This document shows, in pieces, positions 17,310 through 25,438 of a DNA stretch of 64,000 nt. The DNA is taken from NCBI GenBank assembly GCA_030583785.1, contig CP129475.1, positions 351,559-415,558 on the forward strand, in the 5' to 3' direction. The notes under the pieces are model-generated. The model ran no database searches. It saw nothing but the letters and a program-made list of their open reading frames with translations, and had not been told where the DNA came from. Source of the DNA: Candidatus Dojkabacteria bacterium. Its GTDB lineage: Bacteria > Patescibacteriota > Dojkabacteria > B142 > OLB20. Position numbers and translations under genes: made by a program. How positions within the stretch are numbered: position 1 is the first letter of the stretch; each line of letters begins with the position of its first letter.

Positions 17310-18569
17310 TTGTATAAGATCAAGTTTAATACTATGCGTAAACCTAGCAAAATTATCCTGCTCCTATTACTCAGTTTTCTAATTGCATCACCAGTATTTG
17401 CGCAGAGTTTGGATTCAAGTAATTATTCTATATTGGATGCCACGGTTGATAGTGGAGGAGGTCAAATGACAAGCACAAATTATGCTGGTGTAATTTCTGT
17501 AGGCAACCCAACGGCAGACACTAGAATGACAAGTGGTAGTTATGCCTTGGGCTCTGGATTTCCAAATGGCATACAAGCAAATGTTCCAGAACTGATCTGT
17601 TTTGAAACCGACACTGATTCAAACTCAACCTTATGTCAAAGCTTTCCAAATGCAAATGGAGCACAAGGAGAATGCGGTTATCCGGGCTGTTACGATCGAG
17701 CAAAATTAGAAATCGACCCCTCAGCCAATCCTGTTGACACATTATATTTAATAAGAATCGAAGACCTTGAAACCAACACAATTTATTATCTACAAAGTGA
17801 TCACACTCTCGATACAACATACGAAATTGCCGACTTTTTTACTAAATGTTCCCTTGAAGGTTTTGATGCCAACGACCCTGACTGCGATGAAGATACTGAT
17901 CCCAACTGGGACGAAACCCTGCAAAGATACAATGTTTTTGGTTTAGAACCAGACAGAGAGTATTCTGTATCTGTAAGTGCACTAAGCGGAGACTACACTG
18001 GCTCTGCATTCAGCGAACCTCTTAACTCAACAACAGAAAGCCCTTCCATACTATTTGACCTTGATGTGTCCGAAACTGATTCCAATTCGGACAGCCCTTA
18101 CGAGCTTGATCTGGGCGAGTTAATATATGTAGCAGTGACTACTGCACCGGCTAGGATCTGGGTGGATCTAAATACCAATGCAGTGAATGGTGCAAATATC
18201 TATATAAGAAGTGCCAATGGTGCACTTGTATCCAACCAAACAGGAGAAACTATTCCTTCAGAGACAGAAGACCTCGCCCTCGATAGTAATGCGAACGGAG
18301 GTTATGGAATTAAAGTCGATTCTGTCACGCAGACAGAACTCGGCCCATTGCTTGCAAATAGTTTATACGATACAACTGGTGCCCAAGAAGTGGGTGTATT
18401 ATCAATCAATAATACATTACTATTCTACACAGAAAGCTTGAACAACAACTCTGGTCCCATTCTTCAAGGAAGAGGTGGAGTTGCAGTTAAAGCCAGATCG
18501 TCCATTACCGACATTGCATCTGGTGATCTTAACGATCAATTGACTTTTATTTGCATAGGAAACTATTGA
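17310..18569 (+). CDS. Secreted protein, hypothetical
   Basis: 419 aa. There is a signal peptide after an internal Met (MRKPSKIILLLLLSFLIASPVFAQS), so the probable start is ATG 17334. It is Cys-containing and rich in D/N/T. Confidence 0.6.
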   Translation: MYKIKFNTMRKPSKIILLLLLSFLIASPVFAQSLDSSNYSILDATVDSGGGQMTSTNYAGVISVGNPTADTRMTSGSYALGSGFPNGIQANVPELICFETDTDSNSTLCQSFPNANGAQGECGYPGCYDRAKLEIDPSANPVDTLYLIRIEDLETNTIYYLQSDHTLDTTYEIADFFTKCSLEGFDANDPDCDEDTDPNWDETLQRYNVFGLEPDREYSVSVSALSGDYTGSAFSEPLNSTTESPSILFDLDVSETDSNSDSPYELDLGELIYVAVTTAPARIWVDLNTNAVNGANIYIRSANGALVSNQTGETIPSETEDLALDSNANGGYGIKVDSVTQTELGPLLANSLYDTTGAQEVGVLSINNTLLFYTESLNNNSGPILQGRGGVAVKARSSITDIASGDLNDQLTFICIGNY

Positions 18570-18570
18570 T

Positions 18571-23800: not shown

Positions 23801-25438
23801 GATATAGACAACAGCTTAAATCGAATATCCACTAGTCCAGGTCCTGCAGCAGTTGCTGATCTATATTACGGTGATGATCTATTGTGCGATGTAAGCTTAC
23901 CCGATTGTGGCATGGGTGGCGGTGGAGGTAGTCTTTGGGACGATGATGGTTTTGATAATATTTATTATCAGTCTGGCAATGTAGCAATAGGGACCTCGAG
24001 TTTTTCAGGAGCTGATTTTACAGTAGTTGGAGAAACAGCTTACATTGGGTCAGTAACTATTGGAACGGTTACGCCATACTATACAACAGATGCTCATCTA
24101 AAGATTGATCGATCTTTCGCCCAAGGGGATGGAGCACATATCAATTTTCAAAATGGCTGGTACGCAGACGATCCAGTAAATATTGTAGAAGGAGATCTTT
24201 GGTATAACTCAAATACACAGAACCTCAGATTCTATGATGGGAACTCAATAATTAATCTAGGTAGCGGAGGTGGAGGTGGTCAATGGGAGGAATCGGGTAG
24301 TGACATCTATTATGACGACGGATATGTCGCTATTGGAACCTCTGGCTTCTCAGAACCATTTACAGCCTTCGGCGGATCCTCTTTTGAAGGTGGAAGCTTA
24401 TATTGGTATGGTAGCGCACCTTATGAAGGTATGGTTCTGGATTATTGGAATAACAGTATTTCATTAGGTAATTATGTAGGAGATTATGATATATATCTTC
24501 AAGGTAATGTCTCAATCATTAGTTCAGATTATTTCGATGTTCAATCTCAACAAAGCATTACTTTTGGAGAGATTATTTATGACAGAGCAGGGGGAACGAT
24601 TCAATTTGGAGTAGATTGGACTGCGAATGGCCAACCTTTATCATATTTCCAGAACACGATAACTATTGAGAATACATACGATTACAGCTCAGCAAACTTG
24701 ATGATAGAAAACGGCTTCATCTGCGTTGATGATGGTTCGGCTAGTTGTCCTGCATCTACTCCAGGAACCGTATATGCCCAATTTGCCTACGACGAGTTCG
24801 ATGTTGCTGAAAATATTCTAGCAAGGTTAGATGTTAACCCAGCCGAAATCGTTACCTTTGACCCAAATAAGTCAGAGGCGGTAATGAAGTCATCTGAAGC
24901 CTACCAAGAAGGACTACTTGGTGTGATTAGCACCGAACCTGGTGTTCTTGGAGGTATTAAGCTTCAAGCTGTAGACAACTATAAAGTTATGCCTATATCT
25001 TTAGCAGGAAGAGTGCCAGTTAAAGTGAACCTAGAAGGGGGCAAGATAAGGATTGGTGATCCAATTACATCATCAAGTACTCCGGGTGTTGGAATGAAAG
25101 CAACTAGTCCCGGCAGAATAATCGGTTATGCTCTAGATGATTTTAACCAGTCAGAAGGAACGATAGTTGTCTATATCTCAAATAGCTATTACATGCCAAA
25201 AGGATTTTCTCAAGGCAAAAGTGGCTTAGAGGGCGATTCTGCCACATTAAAATCAGGGTCAGACTCAATCACGATTTACAATGCAAATATCAACTCTAAG
25301 AGTCTTATTAATATAACACCAACAAGCTCAACCTCGGGTCAAGTCCTATATGTTGCGTCAAAAGGTGAGGGATTCTTTACAGTCAGAATTGACTCCAGAA
25401 TAAGCAAAGACATTAGCTTTGATTATTTAATAAAGTAG
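20861..25438 (+). CDS. Giant secreted repeat protein, tail-fibre-like or beta-helical, with four tandem 70-aa repeats and a C-terminal segment resembling an intramolecular-chaperone (Peptidase_S74-type) domain
   Basis: 1525 aa with a signal peptide (MKTALNNKLLIIVLALFVLSLVPKQALA). It has 4x the repeat ETDPIWIAARN.SSQTITP.W.FS.P..L.QGAVFGNNAGTTAGTIRYTGSDFEGYTGGNWVSLTS, a long N/G/S/T-rich beta-helix-like middle, and 2x the module GGGG..W...G.DIYY..G.VAIGTS.FS..F. The C-terminal ...DVAENILARLDVNPAEIVTFDPNKSEA...GLLGVISTEPG resembles the start of phage tail-fibre chaperone domains. Confidence 0.7.
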   Translation: MKTALNNKLLIIVLALFVLSLVPKQALAQNSTRDTVEFKNRIVNQNGQAIKDGTYNMKFILFDNSSGGNELWSEERSVPTRRGNFSVNLGSINPFPKASLANVSDLFLHICLDANGQDNDGGGICATRYEENFRSRKRITSVPWSLRSFALGPVSINDGGTGFPINVTSGNGTIVNFQYQDLTRLSVGTNGLVTMSDGSTNFIFNPAEQRVTLSSGADIFFGTKSIKSTTAGLSGASIVGVNQANFTNISGADVQAVLDSIDDLIGTGGGIQNETDPIWIAARNSSAQTITPNWNFSSPVGLNQGAVFGNNAGTTAGTIRYTGSDFEGYTGGNWVSLTSGSIAETDPIWIAARNTSSQTITPAWTFSAPLDLTQGAVFGNNAGTTAGTVRYTGSDFEGYTGGNWVSLTSSSFTETDPIWIDARNTSSQTITPAWTFSAPLDLTQGAVFGNNAGTTAGTIRYTGSDFEGYTGGNWVSLTTAPVSETDPVWVDNRDTNPTTITPEWTFSDTINTADILPTTDATSSLGSQGSRYNQGLFSEFIGIGTTTNYVAGKSLLQLDSSEEIQPTSGDYDLINGRTVYDAQGTTGSEQINLINIRTDIAEGDGSNINRARGVRSTILNNNDGQMNGVFNFSSSVRNEKTVTGSFYSFTGFTENVGTVNGFISNMGSTVVNSGTANNLRGNEIAINNSGSANAVNGAINFLTNTGTVSGGFTSYSSNILNNGTVNTMHGLFSFITNNNEVAGRLSSIYYNLQNNGTYSNVDSGFSSYIFGNNTSGTIPQWYGYTIDQTNAGTALGSIRGLNNVVVNASTGTIADALDTVINIFRNDGNIEGTSSGIKNIVAAGTINNGGIYGIDNNIGSLQILETVPTSVEFVYGLSNRVEGSGAQEIYSNDYISGIYNQLNGDVSAVNRIIGIENEITTTGTANEYYGIWNDVQPLAPSSDIIGMYSTNGISYTYLNYEGTSGDNYSIFGERAYFTSIDIDNSLNRISTSPGPAAVADLYYGDDLLCDVSLPDCGMGGGGGSLWDDDGFDNIYYQSGNVAIGTSSFSGADFTVVGETAYIGSVTIGTVTPYYTTDAHLKIDRSFAQGDGAHINFQNGWYADDPVNIVEGDLWYNSNTQNLRFYDGNSIINLGSGGGGGQWEESGSDIYYDDGYVAIGTSGFSEPFTAFGGSSFEGGSLYWYGSAPYEGMVLDYWNNSISLGNYVGDYDIYLQGNVSIISSDYFDVQSQQSITFGEIIYDRAGGTIQFGVDWTANGQPLSYFQNTITIENTYDYSSANLMIENGFICVDDGSASCPASTPGTVYAQFAYDEFDVAENILARLDVNPAEIVTFDPNKSEAVMKSSEAYQEGLLGVISTEPGVLGGIKLQAVDNYKVMPISLAGRVPVKVNLEGGKIRIGDPITSSSTPGVGMKATSPGRIIGYALDDFNQSEGTIVVYISNSYYMPKGFSQGKSGLEGDSATLKSGSDSITIYNANINSKSLINITPTSSTSGQVLYVASKGEGFFTVRIDSRISKDISFDYLIK
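21683..22522 (+). repeat. Four tandem 210-bp direct repeats inside the 1525-aa gene
   Basis: Units begin at about 21683, 21893, 22103 and 22313 (ac.gatcctat.tggatagcagccagaaac...). Units 2 and 3 are near-identical at the nucleotide level. Confidence 0.85.

What the first reader, a model, noticed from the sequence alone, without database searches (positions are those of the whole stretch)
17310..25438. Block of four secreted or membrane proteins ending in a 1525-aa tail-fibre-like surface protein
Four consecutive plus-strand genes all carry signal peptides or TM anchors. The third has two transthyretin/carboxypeptidase-regulatory-like beta-sandwich domains anchored in the membrane. The fourth is a giant protein with GGGGS-type linkers, 'DIYY..G.VAIGTS' modules typical of phage tail fibres, a long Asn/Gly-rich predicted beta-helix, and a C-terminal segment (DVAENILARLDVNPAEIVTFDPNK...GLLGVISTEPG) that resembles the start of intramolecular-chaperone (Peptidase_S74) domains. 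No other phage genes are nearby, so this looks like a cellular surface or host-attachment apparatus built from phage-fibre-like parts. That would be relevant if the organism is an epibiont.
Basis: partly seen in the sequence, partly recalled or inferred. Interest (0 to 1): 0.7.

Follow-up and report, generated by a model that had tools for sequence, protein, structure and literature searches.

The report
CPR pilus operon with fibre adhesin
This four-gene block in an ultrasmall Dojkabacteria (CPR) genome is most likely a cell-surface attachment operon, not a prophage remnant: a distant version of the recently described CPR 'Pam' pilus (pilin plus membrane-anchored chaperone-like protein) joined to a membrane anchor and a giant fibre whose tail end resembles the self-cleaving assembly domain of phage phi29's appendage protein.

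Summary
All four ORFs exist as described, and each has an N-terminal signal-like segment. The block is chromosomal. It lies between housekeeping genes and is syntenic in other Dojkabacteria (WS6) genomes, with no phage genes nearby.

P1 (419 aa) is a distant relative of CPR Pam pilins. Family members hit the NCBIfam PamT and Pam_pilin_C models below their cut-offs, but at consistent positions.

P2 (signal peptide, two beta domains, C-terminal TM helix) is related to the WxL-interacting proteins of Firmicutes (E 2e-5) and has the PamC/PamD architecture.

P3 is a polytopic membrane protein with two CarboxypepD_reg domains. It is paired with P4 here and in another CPR lineage.

The C-terminal module of P4 is not Peptidase_S74. 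It is a beta-tulip module related to the phi29 gp12 autochaperone (Peptidase_G2). Its invariant D1314-x-A-E1317 motif aligns with gp12 D692-F-A-E695, the first residues after the gp12 cleavage site.

Two strains about 99% identical differ in P4 by one 70-aa repeat and by a replaced hypervariable 61-residue patch.

Verdict: this is a new, divergent variant of a known kind. The S74 assignment is wrong, and the pilus half was missed.

The parts
17334..18569 (+). P1: secreted Pam-type pilin candidate. The ORF runs from TTG 17310; the probable start is ATG 17334; the signal peptide runs to 17402.
   Evidence: One search gives the ORF. One search finds 71 homologues of about 410 aa, all Dojkabacteria-type, one of them 100% identical (411 aa). 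One search gives NCBIfam PamT at E 2.2e-6 on residues 15-84. In one search, 23/55 family members hit PamT and 9/55 hit CPR_Pam_pilin_C. One search gives an AF2 model with pLDDT 87.5.
17403..17567 (+). P1 mature residues 1-55: a conserved triple S-x-N/S-Y segment, the candidate donor-strand or complementation segment.
   Evidence: pLDDT is below 50 in the monomer model, yet the segment is as conserved as the folded domain (0.62 vs 0.63). This is the part that matches the PamT model. The donor-strand role is inferred.
17568..18047 (+). P1 N-terminal domain: Cys-rich region plus an FN3-type beta sandwich.
18048..18566 (+). P1 C-terminal domain: the Pam-pilin C-domain-like region.
   Evidence: In family members the NCBIfam CPR_Pam_pilin_C model aligns almost end to end with the C-terminus: P0074 285-412 = profile 23-148/148, E 6.6e-7; P0081 266-410 = 14-148. 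Foldseek hits chaperone-usher pilins Csu 7zl4 (prob 0.95) and CfaB 4y2l. P1 itself does not reach the model.
18571..19449 (+). P2: signal peptide, two beta-rich domains, and a C-terminal TM helix (19354-19440). It is a WxLIP/PamC/D-like membrane-anchored chaperone or anchor candidate.
   Evidence: One search shows the hydrophobic segments. The family profile (A3) hits PDB EfmWxLIP1 9i25/9i1y at E 2.3e-5. Of 29 members, 6 hit Pfam WxLIP_PGBD and 8 hit fn3_5. A P2-family gene directly follows the P1-type gene in most loci, and many loci have two paralogues.
19529..20860 (+). P3: polytopic membrane protein with two CarboxypepD_reg (transthyretin-like) domains (20015-20248 and 20489-20707), each preceded by a hydrophobic hairpin (19886-20011 and 20333-20473).
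   Evidence: Its stop abuts the P4 start, and the genes overlap by 4 nt in orthologues. A P3-like gene is also adjacent to a P4-like gene in another CPR genome, L042.
20861..25438 (+). P4: 1525-aa secreted fibre-like protein (signal peptide 20861-20944).
   Evidence: It is 90% identical to a WS6 OLB21 protein. Its architecture is modular and shared piecewise with other giant CPR proteins.
20945..21679 (+). P4 N-terminal conserved domain (residues 29-273).
   Evidence: BLASTP shows residues ~1-340 shared with giant proteins P0004, P0005, P0008, P0011 and P0012. Some of these end in Peptidase_S74 instead.
21680..22330 (+). P4 tandem 70-aa (210-bp) repeats: three full units plus a degenerate fourth.
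   Evidence: TRF reports period 210, 2.9 copies, 89%. Copy number differs between strains: one unit fewer in OLB21 and two fewer in OLB20.
22478..23740 (+). P4 Asn/Gly/Ser/Thr/Ile-rich central region, a putative beta-solenoid shaft.
   Evidence: Composition and a weak 16-20 residue periodicity only. The fold was not tested.
24005..24187 (+). P4 hypervariable patch (residues 1049-1109), lying between the two G5-linker/DIYY..AIGTS modules (23912-23998 and 24260-24343).
   Evidence: It holds 32 of the 40 amino-acid differences from the OLB21 orthologue. At DNA level, 77 of the 241 differences in 23 kb fall in 24000-24199. All base types and indels are involved.
24800..25195 (+). P4 gp12-type (Peptidase_G2-like) tandem beta-tulip autochaperone-like module, residues 1314-1445. 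It begins with the invariant D1314-V-A-E1317 motif (24800-24811).
   Evidence: A2 alignment invariants. The profile's best PDB hit is 3gqh_A, the phi29 gp12 C-terminal fragment, starting at its residue 1 DFAEYFE, E 0.025. Relatives pass the Pfam Peptidase_G2 cut-off (P0092, 37.1 bits). The AF2 module has pLDDT ~90. Foldseek hits 3gqh, 3suc and beta-tulip cement proteins at prob 1.00.
25229..25435 (+). P4 terminal ~70-aa beta-sandwich domain.
   Evidence: The AF2 model has pLDDT ~80 for residues 168-236 of the model. The domain is conserved in P0001-P0004.
14116..17234 (+). Upstream syntenic genes: histidine kinase (14116-15009), response regulator (15049-15459) and a 570-aa RelA_SpoT-domain protein (15522-17234). 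These are possible regulators of the block.
   Evidence: Precomputed Pfam in syntenic loci. RelA_SpoT scores 27.8 bits against a cut-off of 27. The link to the block rests on conserved adjacency only.

Best explanation
The block is a chromosomal, Sec-dependent cell-surface attachment operon of a Dojkabacteria (WS6, CPR) bacterium. It has two coupled halves.

Half 1 (P1 + P2) is a divergent, minimal version of the CPR Pam-type pilus.
- P1 is exported. Its conserved but intrinsically unfolded N-terminal S-x-N-Y segment and its Pam-pilin-like C-terminal Ig domain allow subunits to join by strand complementation.
- P2 is a two-Ig-domain protein held in the membrane by a C-terminal helix. It is related to Firmicutes WxLIP and has the PamC/PamD architecture. 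It caps or escorts the pilin and keeps assembly at the membrane.

Half 2 (P3 + P4) is a fibre.
- P4 is exported and trimerises with the help of its C-terminal tandem beta-tulip module, which is homologous to the phi29 gp12 autochaperone.
- That module may then be removed by autocleavage just before D1314.
- P3 is translationally coupled to P4 and is a four-helix membrane protein with two extracytoplasmic transthyretin-like domains. It anchors or docks the fibre base.
- The variable-length repeat stalk and the hypervariable patch near the distal end set reach and ligand (host-cell) specificity.

Shown: the gene structure, the homologies, the fold of the P4 C-terminal module, the synteny and the strain variation.

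Inferred: polymerisation of P1, the chaperone role of P2, anchoring by P3, trimerisation and cleavage of P4, and host binding.
For: Chromosomal and conserved:
- Synteny with housekeeping flanks holds in OLB20, OLB21 and two further contigs.

P1 as a pilin:
- PamT model hit on P1 (E 2.2e-6).
- 23/55 family members hit PamT and 9/55 hit CPR_Pam_pilin_C. The latter aligns almost end to end with the C-terminus in the two members examined.
- Second pilin-like genes that share only the C-domain occur in L004 and L010.
- The confident AF2 model has a disordered yet highly conserved N-terminal 55 residues and six conserved Cys.
- Foldseek hits Csu and CfaB pilins.

P2:
- Architecture.
- Profile hit to EfmWxLIP1 at E 2.3e-5, and Pfam WxLIP_PGBD in 6/29 members.
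- WxLIP is a two-Ig protein with a TM helix, predicted to insert a strand into its WxL partner (PMC10599100).

Recurrence in other CPR lineages:
- L004 has P1-like and P2-like genes next to fibres that carry the P4 N-domain.
- Moranbacteria L045 has a PamT-like protein (E 1.6e-13), a Pam_pilin_C-like protein, two P2-family genes and a fibre.

P3-P4 coupling:
- 0-nt gap here and 4-nt overlaps in orthologues.
- The pair recurs in L042.

P4 C-terminus:
- Mature gp12 ends at residue 691 (PMC6542822). [quoted passage not shown]

Ligand-facing variation:
Against: - All Pam-model hits are far below NCBIfam cut-offs (27 vs 240 bits; 29.5 vs 55 bits). P1 itself does not hit the Pam_pilin_C model.
- No solved Pam structure was in the PDB copy to compare with.
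- The P2 fold was not predicted. P2 could equally be a PamR-like terminator or anchor rather than a chaperone.
- In Pam pilins the donated strand is the inter-domain linker, not an N-terminal extension, so the proposed strand differs.
- The locus has one pilin and one P2, and no separate PamR-like or tip gene.
- Distant Dojkabacteria loci have P1/P2 genes without P3/P4. L042 has P3/P4 without nearby P1/P2. The two halves may therefore be functionally independent.
- The gp12 sequence match is marginal (E 0.025), and the fold is shared with non-cleaving cement proteins.
- The module is internal or duplicated in many relatives.
- gp12 release needs ATP, which is absent outside the cell.
Confidence: 0.55

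Rival explanations
1. There are two independent surface modules that merely share an operon. P1+P2 form a non-filamentous cell-surface complex of the Firmicutes WxL/Csc type, with P2 holding P1 on the envelope. P3+P4 form a separate membrane-anchored fibre adhesin. No pilus is made.
For: - P2's only significant named relatives are WxLIP proteins, which are described as surface-complex components rather than pilus chaperones (PMC10599100).
- P1/P2 occur without P3/P4 in distant Dojkabacteria.
- P3/P4 occur without nearby P1/P2 in L042.
- The window has a single pilin gene.
Against: - The P1 family hits Pam pilus models, not WxL domains.
- The P1 profile finds no WxL protein in the PDB.
- The conserved but disordered N-terminal segment and the multi-pilin loci (L004, L010, L045) look like a polymerising system.
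- Fibre-like genes recur next to P1/P2-type genes in three lineages.
Confidence: 0.25
2. P4 is primarily an enzyme rather than an adhesin. It would be a tailspike-like depolymerase whose beta-solenoid degrades a host cell-wall polymer, as the phi29 gp12 body digests teichoic acid. The other three proteins would serve its export and anchoring.
For: - The gp12-type C-terminal module usually follows an enzymatic beta-helix in phages.
- One relative carrying the module has depolymerase and lyase C-terminal Pfam domains (P0218).
Against: - P4 has no Pfam, PHROG or NCBIfam catalytic-domain hit.
- The central region could not be modelled.
- The strain-variable patch and the repeat stalk fit binding better than catalysis, although they do not exclude catalysis.
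Confidence: 0.08
3. One reading: a fibre matured by a Peptidase_S74 intramolecular chaperone with a catalytic Ser.
For: Some giant proteins that share the P4 N-terminal domain do end in Peptidase_S74 (P0005, P0011). S74 is therefore used in the same protein class.
Against: - P4 has no S74 hit in Pfam at E<=1.
- The profile and fold searches find gp12 / Peptidase_G2 and beta-tulip proteins. Endosialidase appears only at prob 0.30.
- The conserved motif is D-x-A-E, not the S74 Ser-Lys site.
Confidence: 0.02
4. The block is a prophage remnant, and P4 is a decayed phage tail fibre.
For: P4's C-terminal module has a phage-type fold.
Against: - The flanks are housekeeping genes with no phage genes.
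- The same gene order holds in several species-level genomes.
- Base composition is uniform.
- There is one weak hit in 50,697 phage records.
- All four ORFs are intact, and P1 is conserved in 36 species-representative genomes.
Confidence: 0.02

Closest known systems
Pam pilus system of Candidatus Mycosynbacter amalyticus (CPR, Saccharimonadia): PamA/B/E/T pilins, PamC/PamD membrane-anchored chaperones, PamR anchor. Source: bioRxiv 10.64898/2026.03.03.709456; NCBIfam NF058579 and NF058581.
   Same: - It is a CPR-restricted operon whose components are all Sec-exported.
- P1-family proteins give significant, position-consistent hits to the PamT N-terminal region and to the Pam pilin C-domain.
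- A protein with a signal peptide, two beta domains and a C-terminal TM helix directly follows the pilin gene.
- The pilins have conserved Cys pairs.
- A tail-fibre-like gene is co-localised, as the preprint reports for pam neighbourhoods.
   Different: - All scores are far below the family cut-offs.
- The host class is Dojkabacteria, which the preprint does not mention.
- There is one pilin and one chaperone-like gene instead of four pilins, two chaperones and PamR.
- P1 combines a PamT-like N-terminus, an inserted FN3/Cys-rich domain and a pilin C-domain.
- The candidate donor segment is N-terminal rather than an inter-domain linker.
- There is no ATP synthase neighbourhood.
- A P3 membrane protein is present that the preprint does not describe.
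WxL / Csc cell-surface clusters of Firmicutes, specifically WxLIP (DUF916-DUF3324-TM; Pfam PF06030/PF11797; PDB 9i25, 9i1y).
   Same: - The P2 family profile matches EfmWxLIP1 at E 2.3e-5.
- The domain order is the same: signal peptide, two Ig-like domains, C-terminal TM helix.
- WxLIP is predicted to insert a beta strand into its partner.
   Different: - No WxL-domain protein is in the block.
- P1 shows no detectable WxL similarity.
- P2 itself (as opposed to its family profile) has no Pfam hit.
- Different phylum.
Bacteriophage phi29 preneck appendage protein gp12: C-terminal D4 autochaperone, MEROPS/Pfam Peptidase_G2 (PF11962), PDB 3GQH/3SUC.
   Same: - P4 residues 1314-1445 form a tandem beta-tulip module.
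- The invariant D-x-A-E...F start aligns with gp12 D692-F-A-E695, the first residues after the cleavage site.
- Relatives pass the Pfam Peptidase_G2 cut-off.
- Foldseek probability is 1.00.
- The module sits at the end of a long fibre or solenoid protein.
   Different: - P4 itself has no Pfam hit, and identity is ~14%.
- P4 is a Sec-exported cellular protein, so no ATP is available for release.
- An extra 70-aa beta sandwich follows the module.
- In many relatives the module is internal or duplicated.
- Cleavage and trimerisation were not shown.
Classical chaperone-usher pili (Pap/Fim, Csu, CFA/I).
   Same: - Ig-type pilin domain (Foldseek hits to Csu and CfaB).
- A dedicated two-Ig-domain partner protein is encoded next to the pilin.
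   Different: - There is no usher and no outer membrane.
- The chaperone-like protein is membrane-anchored.
- There is no sequence similarity.
- The pilin is a large multidomain protein.

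Membership tests
CPR Pam pilus system | Pilin with a Sec signal peptide and a C-terminal truncated Ig-like (Pam_pilin_C, NF058581) domain. | tested here: inconclusive
   The signal peptide is present. P1 itself does not hit NF058581. 9/55 family members do (best E 5e-7, 29.5 bits vs cut-off 55), aligned almost end to end at the C-terminus in the two members examined.
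CPR Pam pilus system | PamT equivalog (NF058579, cut-off 240 bits). | tested here: not met
   P1 scores 27.3 bits (E 2.2e-6), matching only profile positions 7-77 of 241. This is homology to the N-terminal part, not equivalog membership.
CPR Pam pilus system | Membrane-anchored PapD/FimC-like chaperone (signal peptide, two beta domains, C-terminal TM helix) encoded in the operon. | tested here: inconclusive
   The architecture is met. There is homology to WxLIP two-Ig proteins. P2 cannot be told apart from a PamR-like anchor.
CPR Pam pilus system | Assembly by donor-strand exchange into a helical filament. | not testable with these tools
   This needs multimer prediction or cryo-EM. The only indirect evidence is the conserved but disordered N-terminal segment.
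CPR Pam pilus system | Several pilin classes plus a PamR anchor in one operon. | tested here: not met
   HMM scans of all window ORFs find one P1-type and one P2-type gene only.
Peptidase_S74 intramolecular chaperone (endosialidase / T5 pb1 type) | Match to PF13884 and the S74 chaperone fold with a catalytic Ser. | tested here: not met
   There is no PF13884 hit at E<=1, and no S74 chaperone structure appears among the fold matches. S74 occurs in other proteins that share only the P4 N-domain.
Peptidase_G2 / phi29 gp12 autochaperone | Match to PF11962 above the gathering score. | tested here: not met
   P4 has no hit at E<=1. Relatives that share the module at E<=1e-36 do pass or reach the cut-off: P0092 scores 37.1 and P0168 scores 25.2, against a cut-off of 25.
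Peptidase_G2 / phi29 gp12 autochaperone | Tandem beta-tulip fold of the gp12 D4 domain. | tested here: met
   The AF2 module has pLDDT ~90. Foldseek gives 3gqh_A at prob 1.00, E 2.6e-3, TMt 0.51, and 3suc at prob 1.00. The fold is also shared with non-cleaving cement proteins.
Peptidase_G2 / phi29 gp12 autochaperone | Conserved D-x-x-E at the cleavage site (gp12 S691|D692...E695). | tested here: met
   D1314, A1316 and E1317 are invariant in 9 module sequences. The profile aligns D1314 with residue 1 (DFAEYFE) of the cleaved fragment 3gqh. Mature gp12 ends at residue 691 (PMC6542822). The catalytic role of D/E is from my own recollection of Xiang et al. 2009, which I could not read here.
Peptidase_G2 / phi29 gp12 autochaperone | Autocleavage after trimerisation. 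| not testable with these tools
   This requires protein expression or mass spectrometry.
WxL cluster (Firmicutes) | At least one WxLIP plus two WxL-domain proteins in a cluster. | tested here: not met
   A WxLIP-like P2 is present. No WxL domain hit was found in P1-P4. The P1 profile finds no WxL chain in the PDB.
Prophage / phage tail module | Adjacent phage structural or replication genes. | tested here: not met
   The flanks are L20, PheRS, PBP1, M20 peptidases, HK/RR, TyrRS, RecG, BacA, NusB, RNase III and S16. PHROGs gives no hit for P1, P2 or P4.

The most novel reading that the evidence does not exclude
The Pam pili of CPR bacteria and the WxL/Csc surface clusters of Firmicutes may be branches of one ancient, usher-less assembly system of monoderm bacteria that works by chaperone-assisted strand complementation. 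In Dojkabacteria this system would be physically coupled to a phage-gp12-like trimeric fibre. The fibre would be docked by the P3 transthyretin-domain membrane protein, matured by ATP-independent extracellular autocleavage at F1313|D1314, and would carry a recombining hypervariable patch that sets host-cell specificity of the epibiont.
Probability: 0.2. Interest if true: 0.8.

Novelty: new variant of a known kind. Interest (0 to 1): 0.58.

Why it matters
CPR bacteria depend on attaching to host cells, and how they recognise hosts is largely unknown outside Saccharibacteria. If this reading holds:

- It extends the newly described Pam pilus to Dojkabacteria in a minimal form of one pilin and one chaperone-like protein.
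- It gives a first molecular description of the 'tail-fibre-like protein' that the Pam preprint only noted as a neighbour: a gp12-type autochaperone, a dedicated membrane partner, a repeat stalk of variable length and a strain-variable patch.
- It links the Pam chaperone-like proteins to the WxLIP family of Firmicutes, which suggests a much wider distribution of this assembly principle.
- The hypervariable patch is a concrete candidate for the host-specificity determinant.
- The P4 C-terminal module family (more than 16,000 cluster representatives) is largely missed by the current Pfam model.

Tried and rejected
- **Peptidase_S74.** No support.
- **Prophage remnant.** Rejected by synteny, flank content, composition and the phage database.
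- **Diversity-generating retroelement as the source of the hypervariable patch.** Rejected. No template repeat exists in the gene, and the differences involve all four bases plus indels rather than adenine-specific changes.
- **Single-sequence PDB searches of P1, P2 and P4.** Nothing significant.
- **afdb50 fold library.** Unavailable.
- **Promoter and terminator scan.** Counts were no higher than in shuffles, so it was uninformative.
- **NCBIfam scan of P2-type proteins for PamC/PamD models.** No hits.
- **P1 profile against the PDB for WxL partners.** Only FN3 matches.
- **The original gp12 paper (Xiang et al. 2009).** Could not be read. Cleavage details rest on PMC6542822, PMC3357383, bioRxiv 10.1101/216911 and memory.
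- **Not attempted for lack of structure jobs.** Folding of P2, P3, the P4 N-domain and the P4 central region, and any multimer prediction.

Full report
**1. Observation**

The four + strand ORFs are real:
- P1, 17310-18569, 419 aa. Database orthologues start at the internal ATG 17334 and have 411 aa.
- P2, 18571-19449, 292 aa.
- P3, 19529-20860, 443 aa.
- P4, 20861-25438, 1525 aa.

The gaps between them are 1, 79 and 0 nt, which fits one transcription unit. A consensus promoter/terminator scan was no better than shuffles and says nothing either way.

Each protein begins with a hydrophobic segment followed by an Ala|Gln site that I read by eye. P2 ends in a hydrophobic helix (residues 262-290). 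P3 has two additional hydrophobic hairpins.

P3 carries two CarboxypepD_reg domains (E 6.7e-22).

- G5 linkers.
- Two DIYY..G.VAIGTS modules.
- An Asn/Gly-rich centre.
- The quoted C-terminal sequence.

**2. Organism and context**

The closest relatives are candidate division WS6 / Dojkabacteria proteins. P4 is 90% identical to an OLB21 protein, and P1 and P2 are 100% identical to Candidatus Dojkabacteria entries.

The following gene order is shared with OLB20 and OLB21, and its P2-to-S16 portion with a JGI contig that ends just upstream of P2:
- histidine kinase
- response regulator
- RelA_SpoT-domain protein
- P1, P2, P3, P4
- TyrRS, RecG, BacA, SpoU methylase, RsmD, NusB, RNase III, S16

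In a further Dojkabacteria contig (L006), P1-P4 are adjacent in the same order.

The upstream part of the window encodes L20, PheRS, a class A PBP and M20 peptidases. Base composition is flat. PHROGs gives nothing for P1, P2 or P4. A tblastn of P4 against 50,697 phage genomes gives a single weak hit (E 8e-4). The prophage-remnant reading is therefore rejected.

**3. P1 and P2: a distant Pam-type pilus pair**

*The Pam lead.* NCBIfam gave a weak hit of the P1 N-terminus to 'CPR-type pilus protein PamT' (E 2.2e-6). This led to a June 2026 preprint (bioRxiv 10.64898/2026.03.03.709456) that describes Pam pili of the CPR bacterium Ca. Mycosynbacter amalyticus. According to the preprint:
- The pilins are Sec-exported, with an N-terminal sandwich and a C-terminal truncated Ig domain, and are joined by donor-strand exchange.
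- PamT is a single-domain tip pilin.
- PamC and PamD are PapD-like chaperones that carry a C-terminal TM helix.
- PamR is a membrane anchor.
- A 'tail fibre-like protein' consistently co-localises with pam operons.

*The P1 family.* It has 71 members of about 410 aa in the protein database and 36 loci in species-representative genomes, all Dojkabacteria-type. Of 55 aligned members:
- 23 hit the PamT model.
- 9 hit a second model, CPR_Pam_pilin_C. In the two members examined, the match runs almost end to end over the last 130-145 residues: P0074 residues 285-412 = profile 23-148/148, E 6.6e-7; P0081 residues 266-410 = profile 14-148.

All these scores are below NCBI's cut-offs. This is distant homology, not membership.

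*The P1 model.* An AF2 model of mature P1 is confident (pLDDT 87.5, pTM 0.78) except for the first ~50 residues. Those residues carry three S-x-N/S-Y motifs and are as conserved as the folded N-domain (0.62 vs 0.63). A conserved segment that does not fold in a monomer model is what a strand-complementation segment would look like, but this is inference. Six Cys are conserved. Fold searches show:
- weaker Foldseek matches to chaperone-usher pilins Csu (prob 0.95) and CfaB, and to RbmA.

No Pam structure was in the PDB copy.

*P2.* It diverges fast. An iterative HMM search in the collected loci unites it with every protein of the type 'signal peptide + ~300 aa + C-terminal TM helix' that follows P1-type genes. 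Many loci have two such paralogues, like PamC and PamD.
- A profile of 29 members matches PDB EfmWxLIP1 (9i25/9i1y) at E 2.3e-5.
- 6/29 members hit Pfam WxLIP_PGBD and 8/29 hit fn3_5.

WxLIP (DUF916-DUF3324) is a two-Ig-domain protein with a C-terminal TM helix. It is predicted to insert a beta hairpin strand into its WxL partner (PMC10599100). The Pam preprint does not mention WxL or DUF916.

A PapD-like fold is untested, and P2 might correspond to PamR rather than PamC/D.

*Copy number in the window.* The window holds only one P1-type and one P2-type gene.

**4. P3 and P4: a fibre with its membrane partner**

*The P3-P4 pair.* The stop codon of P3 abuts the P4 start. In orthologues the two genes overlap by 4 nt. 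A gene encoding a P3-like protein with two CarboxypepD_reg domains also lies immediately upstream of a P4-like gene in an unrelated 1.14-Mb CPR contig (L042). I infer that P3 docks or anchors P4. This is not shown.

*P4 is modular.* BLASTP against its relatives shows:
- Residues 1-340 recur in other giant CPR proteins, some of which end in Peptidase_S74.
- The C-terminal module recurs in many others, often at internal positions and duplicated.

*The C-terminal module is widespread.* An exhaustive search with residues 1300-1525 finds 16,253 cluster representatives at E<=1e-3 and 5,492 at E<=1e-10. Nearly all of those listed are very large proteins. The few that carry names are Patescibacteria hypothetical proteins.

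*The C-terminal module is gp12-type.* The evidence:
- An alignment of nine modules has invariant D1314, A1316 and E1317.
- Its profile's best PDB match is the phi29 gp12 C-terminal fragment (3gqh). The match starts exactly at that chain's first residue, DFAEYFE (E 0.025).
- Mature gp12 ends at residue 691 (PMC6542822), so this residue is D692, the first residue after the cleavage site.
- Relatives of the module pass Pfam's Peptidase_G2 threshold over the same stretch (P0092, 37.1 bits; P0168, 25.2 bits; cut-off 25). The second half tends to hit Phage_cement_2.
- The AF2 model has pLDDT ~90 across the module.
- Foldseek returns beta-tulip cement/decoration proteins, the phi29 gp8.5 head-fibre base, 3gqh and 3suc, all at probability 1.00. 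No S74 chaperone structure is among the matches.

The gp12 D4 domain is a tandem beta-tulip autochaperone needed for trimerisation (bioRxiv 10.1101/216911). It is cleaved off after folding (PMC3357383).

*Caveats on the P4 C-terminus:*
- The sequence match is marginal.
- The fold also occurs in non-cleaving proteins.
- The module is not always terminal.
- gp12 release uses ATP, which a Sec-exported protein would lack.

**5. Recurrence of the association**

Genes of the P1, P2 and P4 types recur together in other CPR lineages:
- In L004 (the 1.14-Mb CPR contig), P1-type (393 and 373 aa) and P2-type (345 and 284 aa) genes sit beside a giant fibre gene that carries the P4 N-terminal domain (P0005). 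That fibre and a neighbouring 1068-aa protein end in S74.
- In a Moranbacteria contig (L045), the following lie within 6 kb upstream of the fibre-like gene P0010:
  - a 229-aa PamT-like protein (NCBIfam PamT, E 1.6e-13);
  - a 214-aa protein that matches Pam_pilin_C end to end (E 0.011);
  - two P2-family genes.

Against a necessary link: a distant Dojkabacteria clade has pilin-pilin-P2-P2 loci without P3 or P4. The two halves may therefore be separable modules.

**6. Strain comparison**

The OLB21 contig is about 99% identical to the window over 23 kb. P4 differs in two ways:
- One repeat unit (residues 352-421) is absent. OLB20 lacks two units.
- 32 of the 40 substitutions fall in residues 1049-1109.

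At DNA level, 77 of the 241 differences lie in 24000-24199. They involve all base types and indels, and no template repeat is present. This looks like segment replacement by recombination, not DGR mutagenesis. A localised hypervariable patch near the distal end of a fibre is what a ligand-binding region under diversifying pressure would show. This is inference.

**7. Verdict**

The block is best read as a surface-attachment operon that combines two parts:
- a minimal, divergent Pam-type pilus pair;
- a P3-anchored fibre matured by a gp12-like module.

My confidence in the combined reading is about 0.55. The main rival, at 0.25, is that the two halves are independent and that P1/P2 form a non-filamentous WxL-like surface complex.

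It is a new variant of a known, very recently described kind. It is interesting for CPR host recognition and for the Pam-WxLIP link. It is not categorically new.

Noticed in passing
window 14600-14999 (inside the histidine-kinase gene 14116-15009): This is a second hot spot of strain divergence. It holds 36 of the 241 nucleotide differences from the OLB21 contig, against a background of about 1%.
   Followed up: no
window 15522-17234: A 570-aa protein with a RelA_SpoT nucleotidyltransferase domain (27.8 bits, cut-off 27) sits between the HK-RR pair and P1. It is syntenic in OLB20 and OLB21. It may provide alarmone-type regulation of the surface operon.
   Followed up: partly
window 25674-27665: This tyrosyl-tRNA synthetase carries an N-terminal B3_4 domain, which is normally a PheRS beta-subunit domain. 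In OLB20 the same region is called as two genes of 397 and 255 aa.
   Followed up: no
window ~33576-36118, minus strand (by synteny with L041 22740-24362 and L001 22449-24179): A PilM_2-type gene with small membrane-protein neighbours indicates that a type IV pilus assembly cluster lies about 10 kb downstream. The organism probably has two filament systems.
   Followed up: no
L004 (ERZ25039495 contig_16963, 453-478 kb) and L043: Other CPR genomes carry arrays of giant secreted proteins (1,000-2,200 aa) next to the pilin/chaperone-like genes or the fibre genes. These proteins have Laminin_G_3, DUF2341, Peptidase_S74 and H_lectin domains.
   Followed up: no
P4 residues 1300-1525 (window 24758-25435): The module family has 16,253 cluster representatives, mostly in giant proteins and often with 2-4 copies. 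P4 and several relatives get no Pfam hit. The Peptidase_G2 model seems to cover only part of this family.
   Followed up: partly
L039 8918-10822 and L040 9923-11839: These are P1-family pilins of 634-638 aa. A ~230-residue insertion lies between the N-terminal S-x-N-Y region and the rest, so the pilin scaffold tolerates large inserted domains.
   Followed up: no
L042 1819-7681: A 5.8-kb stretch upstream of the P3-like/P4-like pair has no called genes. It was not examined.
   Followed up: no
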